From UHGV virus genome UHGV-0240317: a DNA stretch of 64,000 bases. One strand, 5' to 3'. The position numbers were made by a program, and so were the translations under genes. The stretch is from a virus. Positions 25,640-27,495 of this stretch are shown here, piece after piece; the first letter of the stretch is position 1, and each line of letters begins with the position of its first letter. Below the pieces are notes generated by a model. The model worked only from the letters and a program-made list of their open reading frames with translations, ran no database searches and was not told where the DNA came from.

Positions 25640-25975
25640 CCAACGGGTACTCACCAGCATCACTTAAGAGTCTTTTAAAAGGGTTTTTAAGTAATGTGAT
25701 GTTTGGTTTGGTGTGGTCAGGTAATGTGATGTCTGGTTTAGTGCGGTGATGTGCGGTCCGGTAAGGTCCGGTGCGGTAAAGTGCGGGTAGTTAGTCTCAG
25801 CTACATTAAAATGAGACTTACCTTTTTAAAAGGTCTTTAAGAGGGTCTTTTAATAAGGTGCTGTATGGTAAGGTGATGTCTGGTGTGGTAGGGTGAGGTT
25901 AAGTGAAGTGAAGTGAGGTGAGGTATGGGTGGATGGTAGTAGCCACGTTAAAAATCTACCAAGTTTCTAAAGAGT
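25640..25975. repeat. intergenic repeat array 1: two units of [GGTCTTTAAGAGGGTCTTTTAA-like box] + [GGTNN pentamer-periodic tract ~70-100 nt] + [covarying stem-loop]
   Basis: Tracts such as tGGTttGGTgtGGTcaGGTaa... ending GGGTAG, followed by hairpins AGTCTCA-gctacattaaaa-TGAGACT and GGTAG-tagccacgttaaaaat-CTACC. Confidence 0.6.
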
Positions 25976-26036
25976 CTTCTGTTGAGGGTTCTTTACAAAC
26001 AACTTAACAATCAACTAAAGTGTGGAGCTAAATGCT

Positions 26037-26624
26037 ATGAAACTGTTAAATATCAAAATCACTGGTACTCGTCCTTTCTTGAGCCATAACGATACGCTGT
26101 CAGACCCATTAAACCCTCTGACAAAATATCACAAGTCCCTGTCCAGTAAACGTAAAAAGACTGACGAAGACTATGCGCTCTTAGCAGAAAGTCAACTGGT
26201 AACTTCTTGTTACTACGATGAGCAGCTAGGTTTTGTTATGAACGGCGAGATGATTGAGGCTTGTATCAAGTCTGGTGCAAAACTCAACAAACTTGGTAAG
26301 GTAATTGACCGAGCCATTATGCTGACAGATGTAGTCTTCCCAATGACTATCAAGAACTGCCCAGCAAACCCACAAGAACTTGCTAAGAATCCAGACTTTA
26401 TCTATGCTAAATCTGTTAAGATTGGCACAGCACGAGTTATGAGCTACCGTCCAATCTTCCGTGACTGGTCTGTAGAGTTTGGTTTGATGTTCGATGAAGA
26501 GCAAATCACCAAAGAAGAACTCCTGATGGTTCTGGAAAATGCTGGCAACCTTTGTGGTGTAGGTGATTGGCGTCCACGCTTTGGTCGTTTTTCTGTAGAA
26601 GTTATTTCAGAAGGTAACGTTTAA
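26037..26624 (+). CDS. hypothetical protein
   Basis: ATG 26037 with GGAG RBS; 195 aa; flanked by repeat arrays. Confidence 0.5.
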
Positions 26625-26626
26625 TT

Positions 26627-27067
26627 ATGAATACAAAAGCATTAGCAGCAAAGTTTAGTTATGGTGACACTGTATCACACTCTGAGATGGACACCTTCTT
26701 AGGTATTGTGAAGCCAACTTATCAAGGTGACATTGTTAAGTACGAAGATGAAATGAAGGCTTATGCGCTTACACGTCTAAACCGACTTGAGAAGTTTATT
26801 GAGAAGCTTCTTAAAGAAGAGAAGATTTATCTGGTTGCTTCAATGGGTGTTGGTTATCGTGTGGTTGAACCTAAGCATCAAGCAACTATTGCAAAACGCA
26901 AAATGTCTGGTAAGATTGGTCGTGCTTTAAAGCAAGCCACTCAAGCTATTGAGAATGTGAACACTATGGCACTTAGTCATCAAGAACGCTCACGACTGAT
27001 TGAACAGCAAAACCATTTAGCTGCTATGAAAGCTAACATTAACAAGCAACGTAGAAAACCTTTCTAA
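26627..27067 (+). CDS. hypothetical protein
   Basis: 146-aa ORF, basic C-terminus. Confidence 0.5.
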   Translation: MNTKALAAKFSYGDTVSHSEMDTFLGIVKPTYQGDIVKYEDEMKAYALTRLNRLEKFIEKLLKEEKIYLVASMGVGYRVVEPKHQATIAKRKMSGKIGRALKQATQAIENVNTMALSHQERSRLIEQQNHLAAMKANINKQRRKPF

Positions 27068-27077
27068 GTTGACTAGG

Positions 27078-27101
27078 TAGCCTCTTCGGAGGCTCCTTTT
27101 T
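27078..27101 (+). terminator. intrinsic terminator with UUCG tetraloop (AGCCTC ttcg GAGGCT) + U5
   Basis: Inverted repeat 27079-27094 followed by CCTTTTTAAAA. Confidence 0.55.
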
Positions 27102-27495
27102 AAAAGGTCTTTAAGAGGGTCTTTTAATGAGGTTTGGTATGGTCAGGTATGGTGTGGTGTTGTAAGGTTTGGTGCGGTCAGGTTAGGCTTGGTATGGGTA
27201 GTTAATCGGAGCTACATAAAAATCCGATTACATCACTTAAGAGTCTTCTAAGAGGGTTTTTAAGTGGTGTTTGGTAGGATAGAGTAAGGTAAGTTAAGGT
27301 AGGGTGAGGTCTGGTATGGTAAGGTAATGTATGGGTAGTTAATCGGAGCTACATAAAAATGAGACTCACATCACTTAAGAGTCTTTAAAAAGGGTTTTTA
27401 AGTGTTGTGAGGTGATGTAAGGTCGGGTATGGCTATGTCTTGTATGGTTTGGTATGGAAGGATGGCAGTAGCCTTATAAAAAATCTGCCAAATAA
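27093..27495. repeat. intergenic repeat array 2: three units of box + GGTNN periodic tract + stem-loop (paralogous to array 1)
   Basis: Units end GGGTAGTTAATCGGAGCTACATAAAAATCCGATT, ...AATCGGAGCTACATAAAAATGAGACT (chimeric, unpaired), GGCAG-tagccttataaaaaat-CTGCC. Confidence 0.6.

What the first reader, a model, noticed from the sequence alone, without database searches (positions are those of the whole stretch)
25640..27495. Two intergenic repeat arrays with 5-nt GGT periodicity and covarying stem-loops bracketing accessory genes
Five units each combine a conserved box (for example CACTTAAGAGTCTTTTAAAAGGGTTTTTAAG), a 70-100 nt tract in which GGT recurs every 5 nt on the plus strand and which ends GGGTAG, and a hairpin whose loop is conserved (gctaca..taaaaat) while the stem sequences differ but stay complementary (AATCGGA/TCCGATT, AGTCTCA/TGAGACT, GGTAG/CTACC, GGCAG/CTGCC). 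That covariation argues for selection on structure. One copy (about 27335-27365) has mismatched arms, as if chimeric by recombination. The 5-nt period excludes coding. Candidate roles are protein-binding iterons or an origin, structured UTR elements, or SD-like (AGGT/GAGGT) ribosome-binding decoys.
Basis: seen in the sequence. Interest (0 to 1): 0.75.

Follow-up and report, generated by a model that had tools for sequence, protein, structure and literature searches.

The report
Guide-RNA arrays of a phage VIPR system
The two repeat arrays are guide-RNA genes of a VIPR system, a CRISPR-like phage weapon first described in 2026 preprints, and at least three of the five guides match an 11-kb satellite element found in E. 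coli chromosomes.

Summary
Five units on the + strand (25658-25964 and 27095-27493) each have a conserved box, a strictly phased pentamer tract (NN-G-G-Y, 12-20 pentamers) and a structured 3' element. No other place in the 64 kb has this periodicity.

The explanation is already published. The ORF between the arrays (26037-26624) is 191/195 identical to the SUSP1 Vipr protein (PDB 36pp). The next ORF is 145/146 identical to SUSP1 vap1. Two 2026 preprints show that Vipr, a minimal Cas7-like RAMP, polymerises on vrRNAs made of GGY/NN repeats. It hides each GGY and uses the NN pairs to read double-stranded DNA, skipping every third base.

I reproduced that rule here:
- Guide 3 matches a satellite gene 24/24.
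- Guide 2 matches 20/20 over ten NN.
- The 3' half of guide 1 matches 18/18.
- Across 22 related phages, 58 of 68 guides hit the satellite with a 1-nt skip, against 1-2 with other skips.

The "box" is a 16-22 bp hairpin, which I did not find mentioned in the text of either preprint. The origin, iteron and Shine-Dalgarno-decoy readings are not supported.

The parts
25600..25627 (+). Sigma-70-type promoter (TTGACA-16-TATACT) placed to drive the upstream vrRNA array, vipr and vap
   Evidence: 11 of 12 consensus matches. It lies directly after the DNA ligase stop codon. Its function is inferred, not shown.
25658..25696 (+). Box hairpin 1 (type A); its 3' arm overlaps the first pentamers of vrRNA-1
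25688..25787 (+). vrRNA-1 repeat tract of 20 NNGGY pentamers. It contains an internal imperfect 30-nt duplication. The nine 3'-most NN match the satellite tape-measure gene 18/18.
25785..25822 (+). vrRNA-1 3' tail, an H-type pseudoknot (stem 1 4/4 pairs, stem 2 7/7 pairs)
25821..25858 (+). Box hairpin 2 (type B)
25855..25929 (+). vrRNA-2 repeat tract of 15 pentamers. NN 2-11 match a 236-aa satellite gene 20/20. It has two more GA pentamers than the copy in phage ASO1B.
25927..25964 (+). vrRNA-2 3' tail pseudoknot, the terminal type (stem 1 GTGG/CCAC, stem 2 GGTAG/CTACC)
25963..26000 (+). Sixth copy of the box hairpin, upstream of vipr
   Evidence: 16-bp stem; one search reports a weak promoter-like site at 25992-26021 that overlaps it
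26037..26624 (+). vipr, a 195-aa minimal RAMP (Cas7/Csm3-like) that polymerises on vrRNA
   Evidence: 191/195 identical to PDB 36pp_D 'SUSP1 Vipr protein', E = 6e-128. AlphaFold2 model with mean pLDDT 95; the best Foldseek matches are Csm3/Cas7; the published contact residues are present.
26627..27067 (+). vap1, the 146-aa VIPR accessory protein
   Evidence: 145/146 identical to the SUSP1 ORF next to vipr; no Pfam family; PHROG family of unknown function.
27079..27101 (+). Intrinsic terminator-like hairpin and T run after vap
27095..27132 (+). Box hairpin 3 (type B)
27129..27198 (+). vrRNA-3 repeat tract of 14 pentamers. All 12 interior NN match a 184-aa satellite gene 24/24.
27196..27233 (+). 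vrRNA-3 3' tail pseudoknot (4/4 and 7/7 pairs)
27231..27269 (+). Box hairpin 4 (type A)
   Evidence: -19.1 kcal/mol, z = -5.1..
27261..27335 (+). vrRNA-4 repeat tract of 15 pentamers, three of which are degenerate (AGGAT, AGAGT, AAGTT). No significant target was found.
27333..27370 (+). vrRNA-4 tail, a chimera: 5' arm AATCGGA with 3' arm TGAGACT, so stem 2 forms only 4 of 7 pairs. Probably defective.
27369..27407 (+). Box hairpin 5 (type A)
   Evidence: -21.6 kcal/mol, z = -5.9..
27399..27458 (+). vrRNA-5 repeat tract of 12 pentamers. Its best match is 17/20, in a small serine-invertase gene of a satellite, which is borderline.
27456..27493 (+). vrRNA-5 3' tail pseudoknot, the terminal type (stem 1 AAGG/CCTT, stem 2 GGCAG/CTGCC)

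Best explanation
The region is a type II VIPR (Viral Interference Programmable Repeat) locus of the SUSP1 clade, carried by a Felix O1-like (Ounavirinae) phage.

Layout. Two vrRNA genes lie upstream and three lie downstream of vipr and vap1, all on the + strand.

Mechanism shown for SUSP1 in the preprints. One Vipr protomer binds per pentamer and forms a helical filament on the RNA. Each G-G-Y is flipped into protein pockets, and the two variable bases of each pentamer stay exposed. The exposed dinucleotides pair with double-stranded DNA that has the pattern NNxNNx, so one target base is skipped for every three guide bases. Unwinding starts at the end capped by the 3' pseudoknot. Binding blocks transcription, as CRISPRi does, without a PAM and on either strand.

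Shown here. The locus has every sequence-level component of that system. The guides of this phage and its relatives match an 11-kb satellite element in E. coli chromosomes. That satellite carries its own tape-measure and baseplate genes related to the phage's genes.

Inferred. The phage uses the arrays to silence a satellite that parasitises it. The conserved hairpin before each guide marks the 5' boundary, most likely as a processing site.
For: Protein identity:
- The ORF at 26037-26624 is 98% identical to the SUSP1 Vipr chain solved by cryo-EM.
- It models confidently (pLDDT 95) and its best fold matches are Csm3/Cas7.
- H17, K33, R39, E71, M72, K82, G87, K88, R138, C173, D177, W178 and R179 are all present.
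- vap1 is 145/146 identical to the SUSP1 copy, and gene order (ligase, vrRNA, vipr, vap, vrRNAs) matches SUSP1.

RNA anatomy:
- The GGY/NN pentamers are strictly phased, with conserved GGY and near-random NN.
- The 3' pseudoknot forms 92% of possible pairs. 9 of 11 pairs show compensatory changes, against 28-36% pairing when the partners are slid.

Targets:
- With the published 1-nt-skip rule, guide 3 matches 24/24, guide 2 matches 20/20 over ten NN, and the 3' half of guide 1 matches 18/18, all within satellite genes.
- For each of these three guides, 0 of 200 NN-order permutations reach the observed score. Skips of 0, 2 or 3 stay at background.
- Over 68 unique guides from 22 phages, 58 reach at least 80% match with skip 1. 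The controls give 1, 2 and 2 for skips 0, 2 and 3, and 4 for permuted NN order. At 90% or more the counts are 35 against 0.
- The skipped base falls on codon position 3 in 30 of 40 coding hits.
- There is no self-target in the window.

Deep conservation: homologs of 37-40% identity in unrelated viral contigs are also flanked by GGT or GGC pentamer tracts.

Published experiments: small-RNA sequencing, Vipr pull-down, GFP repression, phage defence and cryo-EM on SUSP1.
Against: - No expression or binding data exist for this particular phage. Function is transferred from SUSP1.
- Guide 4 has a broken pseudoknot, three degenerate pentamers and no target, so it is probably inactive.
- Guide 5 has only a borderline match (17/20; 4 of 200 permutations reach it).
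- The 5' half of guide 1 and the 3'-most NN of guide 2 do not match any of the 13 satellite variants I could fetch.
- Guide 1 has 20 pentamers, outside the published range of 9-16.
- Both source papers are preprints.
Confidence: 0.96

Rival explanations
1. The locus is a decaying remnant. The arrays and genes are VIPR-derived but no longer work in this phage.
For: Guide 4 is chimeric and degenerate. Guide 1 carries an internal duplication that breaks its match. Guide 2 has extra pentamers near the pseudoknot-proximal end.
Against: Both ORFs are intact and 98-99% identical to the tested SUSP1 proteins, with all contact residues kept. Four of five pseudoknots are intact. Guide 3 has a perfect 24/24 target present in at least 9 complete E. 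coli genomes.
Confidence: 0.03
2. The tracts act at the DNA level, as iterons, or as a G-rich non-template strand that forms an R-loop to prime replication downstream of the strong promoter.
For: The tracts are strongly G-rich and C-poor on the transcribed-sense strand. They sit behind a near-consensus promoter, next to replication genes such as the ligase.
Against: The NN positions are hypervariable between nearly identical phages, whereas iterons are conserved. The variable bases encode matches to foreign DNA. The same tracts always travel with the vipr gene in unrelated viruses. In SUSP1 the RNAs co-purify with Vipr.
Confidence: 0.005
3. The RNAs are sponges, either Shine-Dalgarno-like decoys for 30S subunits or binding sites for a TRAP-like ring protein. 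The variable bases would carry no information.
For: AGGT/GAGGT resemble part of the Shine-Dalgarno consensus. A triplet plus a 2-nt spacer is the layout of TRAP binding sites. Both points come from my own knowledge and were not tested.
Against: Distant loci use GGC. The 'spacer' bases are the informative ones and match targets at 92-98% per position. In the solved complex the GGY bases are buried in protein.
Confidence: 0.005

Closest known systems
SUSP1 type II VIPR system (bioRxiv 10.64898/2026.04.26.720920 and 10.64898/2026.04.26.720927; PDB 36pp)
   Same: - Vipr is 191/195 identical and vap1 is 145/146 identical.
- Gene order is the same.
- The GGY/NN pentamer guides are the same kind.
- The 3' pseudoknot tail types are the same.
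- The box hairpins are the same.
- The same satellite family is targeted under the 1-nt-skip rule.
   Different: This phage has 2 + 3 vrRNAs, whereas SUSP1 has 1 + 3 (locus L019). The NN content of the guides differs. One guide carries a 30-nt duplication, one has extra pentamers, and one has a chimeric tail.
Class 1 CRISPR-Cas backbone (Cas7/Csm3 filament on crRNA)
   Same: Both use a RAMP fold with a glycine-rich loop and a thumb. A protein filament forms on a guide RNA, with periodic base flipping. The guide is capped by a conserved structured handle.
   Different: - The period is 5 nt with 3 of 5 guide bases hidden, against 6 nt with 1 hidden.
- There are no repeat-spacer arrays and no cas1/cas2 acquisition genes.
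- There is no nuclease in this type.
- The system is encoded by a phage.
- The target is read in a gapped 2 + 1 pattern.
TRAP-trp leader RNA (11 G/UAG triplets with 2-3 nt spacers)
   Same: A short conserved triplet recurs every 5 nt on RNA, with one protein subunit per repeat. This comparison comes from my own knowledge.
   Different: TRAP is a closed ring with an unrelated fold, and its spacers carry no information. No TRAP-like gene is present here.

Membership tests
VIPR system (type II, SUSP1 clade) | A Vipr protein (minimal RAMP) encoded next to the repeats; clade membership requires more than 90% identity to SUSP1 Vipr | tested here: met
   191/195 identical to PDB 36pp_D. Csm3/Cas7 are the best fold matches. 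One search gives the clade definition.
VIPR system (type II, SUSP1 clade) | Residues that grip GGY and DNA: H17, D177, R138, W178, E71, M72, R179, C173, K33, K82, K88, R39 | tested here: met
   all are present. The paper's 'T175' is V175 both here and in the PDB sequence.
VIPR system (type II, SUSP1 clade) | A vap accessory gene directly downstream of vipr | tested here: met
   145/146 identical to the SUSP1 ORF at 28031-28471.
VIPR system (type II, SUSP1 clade) | vrRNAs made of 9-16 tandem YNNGG repeats with conserved GGY and hypervariable NN | tested here: met
   The tracts have 12-20 pentamers; unit 1 exceeds 16 because of a duplication. NN entropy is 1.9 bits. G at position 4 is 98% and Y at position 5 is 100%.
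VIPR system (type II, SUSP1 clade) | An invariant 3' tail folding into a pseudoknot | tested here: met
   92% of cells pair and 9 of 11 pairs show compensatory changes; 4 of the 5 window units are intact and unit 4 is broken.
VIPR system (type II, SUSP1 clade) | NN dinucleotides match natural DNA targets under the 1-nt-skip rule, with the skip at wobble positions, on either strand, and without self-targeting | tested here: met
   The match is clear for units 1-3, borderline for unit 5 and absent for unit 4.
VIPR system (type II, SUSP1 clade) | Guides are expressed as RNAs of about 100 nt that co-purify with Vipr and repress transcription | not testable with these tools
   Shown for SUSP1 only.
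CRISPR array | Identical direct repeats of 23-50 nt alternating with unique spacers, plus cas1/cas2 or an effector operon | tested here: not met
   The conserved parts (hairpin and tail) flank a periodic tract rather than a contiguous spacer. The only cas-like gene is the RAMP.
Plasmid or phage origin iterons | Several near-identical copies of a 17-22 bp site, conserved among close relatives | tested here: not met
   The unit is 5 nt, and 2 of its 5 positions are near-random even between phages whose flanks are about 94% identical.
Rfam RNA families | A match at or near a family's gathering score | tested here: not met
   no match in the arrays or in the distant loci.

The most novel reading that the evidence does not exclude
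The conserved 'box' is a dedicated processing and boundary element of type II VIPR arrays. It is a 16-22 bp hairpin placed before every vrRNA and before vipr, and its 3' arm contains the first invariant pentamer(s). Cleavage in this stem would set the guide's 5' end and the register of the Vipr filament. A stem this long suggests host RNase III (from my own knowledge of RNase III substrates). I did not find this element mentioned in the text of either preprint. Together with the pseudoknot, it would also supply the homology at which guides are shuffled, duplicated or lost between phages. The chimeric unit 4 and the duplicated unit 1 would be examples.
Probability: 0.45. Interest if true: 0.4.

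Novelty: already known. Interest (0 to 1): 0.3.

Why it matters
VIPR is reported as an RNA-guided DNA-binding system older than CRISPR, with a gapped 2-of-5 guide code.

This window shows that the system can be recognised from raw sequence alone by its 5-nt GGY phase.

It also gives an independent computational replication of the 1-nt-skip rule on guides from 22 phages. At least three of this phage's guides match an 11-kb satellite found in hundreds of E. coli genomes, including O157:H7 strains.

The only element that may be new is the hairpin before each guide, which bears on how the arrays are cut into single guides.

Tried and rejected
- Rfam at permissive E-values found nothing in the arrays or in three distant loci, so there is no hammerhead match.
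- Pfam and PHROGs gave no function for either ORF.
- Before the protein was identified I considered four ideas. These were a TRAP-like ring-binding site, an R-loop origin, a lambda nut-like boxA/boxB/boxC antiterminator, and a Shine-Dalgarno sponge. All four were dropped once the Vipr identity and the target matches were in hand.
- Looking up the contigs that encode Vipr homologs of 45-50% identity (P0022, P0030) returned other VIPR-carrying phages, not satellites.
- An exact-pattern scan of IMG/VR for the guide-5 core gave 0 hits.
- The same scan for guide 4 gave 2 hits in unrelated contigs of 31-33% GC. The pattern is A-rich, so I judged these to be chance.
- No sigma-70 promoter was found at the boxes by the consensus scan. 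A weak TTAAAA-17-TTTAAT reading is possible, but it lacks the conserved A at position 2 of the -10 hexamer.
- The PhageMaP paper on the Felixounavirus Bas63 held nothing on this locus.
- The satellites I fetched carry no vipr-like tract, except for one vrRNA in L040.

Full report
**What is in the sequence**

The window is a Felix O1-like (Ounavirinae) phage. 231 phage records match the region, the best at 90-94% identity. The finding lies just after an ATP-dependent DNA ligase gene (24492-25592). On the + strand the order is as follows:
- a near-consensus sigma-70 promoter (25600-25627);
- two repeat units;
- a 195-aa ORF (26037-26624) and a 146-aa ORF (26627-27067);
- a terminator-like hairpin (27079-27101);
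- three more repeat units;
- another promoter at 27509.

Written in the register NNGGY, the five tracts hold 20, 15, 14, 15 and 12 pentamers with no phase slip. A count of GT recurring at distance 5 singles out only these tracts in the 64 kb, and nothing comparable lies on the other strand. Tandem Repeats Finder agrees. No ORF of 30 aa or more lies in either intergenic region, and Rfam has no match.

**How the identity was found**

Using the 195-aa protein as an anchor, I fetched 24 viral loci. All 18 close relatives, plus three GenBank phages, carry 3-5 such tracts in the same places.

More telling, contigs whose protein is only 37-40% identical are also flanked by period-5 tracts. These are GGT pentamers in L027 and L022 and GGC pentamers in L024, running from stop codon to ribosome-binding site. 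So the tract and the gene travel together over long evolutionary distances.

The protein family has more than 500 members and no Pfam domain. A profile of 40 members hit one solved structure, PDB 36pp chain D, 'SUSP1 Vipr protein'. The window protein is 191/195 identical to it. An AlphaFold2 model (pLDDT 95) has Csm3/Cas7 subunits of type III and type VII CRISPR complexes as its best fold matches.

**What is already known**

- **Components.** Vipr is a minimal RAMP. vrRNAs consist of 9-16 YNNGG repeats with conserved GGY and hypervariable NN, followed by an invariant 3' tail that forms a pseudoknot in the SUSP1 clade.
- **Structure.** Cryo-EM shows one protomer per repeat. The three GGY bases are flipped into protein pockets and the NN bases are presented for pairing.
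- **Target rule.** The target is double-stranded DNA read as NNx, one base skipped. It can lie on either strand and needs no PAM.
- **Direction.** Unwinding proceeds from the pseudoknot end towards the 5' end.
- **Outcome.** Binding represses transcription.
- **Natural targets.** In the SUSP1 clade, 18 of 20 assignable guides target a satellite phage in E. coli genomes.

Locus L019 in my set is SUSP1 itself.

**Membership tests run here**
- vipr: 98% identity, and all published contact residues are present. The paper's T175 is V175 in both sequences.
- vap1: 145/146 identical, with the same gene order.
- Repeats: over 77 unique tracts, NN entropy is 1.95 and 1.90 bits. Position 3 is G in 77%, position 4 is G in 98%, and position 5 is T in 90% and C in 10%.
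- Tail: the 38 nt that begin at the GGG of the last pentamer align without gaps across four sequence types and a satellite copy. The pseudoknot has stem 1 at columns 3-6 with 17-20 and stem 2 at columns 9-15 with 28-34. It forms 92% of possible pairs, 9 of 11 pairs show changes on both sides, and slid controls give 28-36%.

'Ends GGGTAG' and 'conserved loop GCTACA' are the two strands of stem 1. The covarying arms are stem 2. A locus with only 45% identical Vipr (L029) has the same fold with entirely different stems.

**Targets**

The phage gene next to the tape-measure gene (40542-41342) matches a 'phage baseplate protein' in 474 complete E. coli genomes. That gene lies in an 11-kb element inserted in a DUF72-family gene, near tonB, or near dinB. 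The element carries a methyltransferase, a replication-initiator-like HTH protein, a tape-measure gene, the baseplate gene and a serine recombinase.

I scored every guide against 13 copies (199 kb) with skips of 0-3 and with permuted NN order.
- **Guide 3:** all 12 interior NN match (24/24) at L034:5512, in an O157:H7 satellite.
- **Guide 2:** NN 2-11 match 20/20 at L032:9536 and L033:8513.
- **Guide 1:** the nine 3'-most NN match 18/18 in the tape-measure gene (L030:18557).
- **Controls for guides 1-3:** none of 200 permutations reaches the observed score for any of the three, and other skips stay at background.
- **Guide 5:** 17/20, which is borderline (4 of 200 permutations).
- **Guide 4:** no significant match (22 of 200 permutations).

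Over 68 unique guides from 22 phages, 58 reach at least 80% match with skip 1. The controls give 1, 2 and 2 with skips 0, 2 and 3, and 4 with permuted order. At 90% or more the counts are 35 against 0. The skipped base is at codon position 3 in 30 of 40 coding hits, with 24 sense and 16 antisense.

Interior NN match at 92-98% per position. The conserved first and last pentamers match near background. The window has no self-target. The exact guide-3 target occurs in at least 9 complete genomes, mostly O157:H7.

**The box**

Folding shows that each box is a long hairpin: 16-22 bp, -12 to -22 kcal/mol, z-scores down to -5.9. Its 3' arm includes the first conserved pentamer(s), TAAGT GATGT or RAGGT.

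RNAalifold on 74 unique copies predicts 16 pairs, 6 of them with compensatory double changes between the two box types. In four units from four related phages (L010, L011, L012, L018) a 22-nt insertion sits in the loop and leaves the stem intact. A sixth copy precedes vipr (25963-26000).

Term searches of both preprints found no occurrence of hairpin, RNase or upstream element. The figures are not held, so I could not check them.

The mature SUSP1 RNAs are about 100 nt. That length fits tract plus tail without the hairpin, so I infer that the hairpin is a processing or boundary signal. The stem length suggests RNase III, a point from my own knowledge that I did not test. An internal promoter is the alternative.

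**Peculiarities of this phage**
- Guide 1 contains an imperfect 30-nt duplication (25691-25747), and the duplicated 5' half has no match.
- Guide 2 has two more GA pentamers than its copy in phage ASO1B.
- Guide 4 combines the 5' arm of one tail type with the 3' arm of another, so stem 2 forms only 4 of 7 pairs. It also has three pentamers that break GGY and no target, so it looks like a decaying guide.
- The same guides recur in different phages at different array positions and with different tails. This suggests module exchange at the conserved hairpin and tail.

**Verdict**

The element is a member of a system that is already described, in the very clade that was characterised experimentally. 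The residual novelty is the undescribed hairpin, plus the broader replication of satellite targeting.

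Noticed in passing
window 25658-25696, 25821-25858, 25963-26000, 27095-27132, 27231-27269, 27369-27407: The conserved 'box' is a 16-22 bp hairpin whose 3' arm overlaps the first pentamer(s) of each guide. It covaries between two sequence types and also precedes vipr. I did not find it mentioned in the text of the VIPR preprints.
   Followed up: partly
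L030:11170-22366 and L031-L042 (E. coli chromosomes): An 11-kb satellite-like element is present in about 470-570 of 5,426 complete E. coli genomes. It is inserted in a DUF72-family gene, near tonB or near dinB. It carries its own tape-measure gene and a baseplate gene that is 92-93% identical at the DNA level to part of the phage gene at 40542-41342. Its sequence is highly mosaic.
   Followed up: partly
L040:3830-3916 (minus strand): One satellite copy (APEC O18) encodes its own vrRNA. It has a sigma-70 promoter and a phage-type pseudoknot tail, but no vipr is annotated there (I did not search for an unannotated homolog). A guide from phage L010 (tract at 2839) matches this locus 16/18.
   Followed up: partly
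L022:4140-5400: A 146-kb viral contig has about 12 degenerate GGT-pentamer tracts. They are separated by a conserved 50-nt element with a GCAA-tetraloop hairpin. Rfam finds no hammerhead or any other family there.
   Followed up: partly
L024:3566-3850 and 4322-4500: A distant VIPR locus uses GGC rather than GGT in nearly every pentamer. Its tracts begin at stop codons and end in AAGGTTTTTT just before the next start codon.
   Followed up: no
L029:9853-10070: A lambdoid prophage-like contig (Vipr 45% identical) has a tail, ATGGGAGGTGGCGGTCCTCGTTAAAAACCGCCC, that folds into the same pseudoknot with different stems. The GTTAAAAA linker is conserved.
   Followed up: no
window 28172-28471: A 99-aa Cro/CI-type HTH protein is encoded about 700 bp downstream of the last guide, in the same transcriptional direction. 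Any link to the VIPR locus is unknown.
   Followed up: no
preprint 10.64898/2026.04.26.720927 compared with PDB 36pp_D and window 26037-26624: The preprint names T175 as lining the pyrimidine pocket. Residue 175 is valine both in the deposited SUSP1 sequence and in the window protein.
   Followed up: yes
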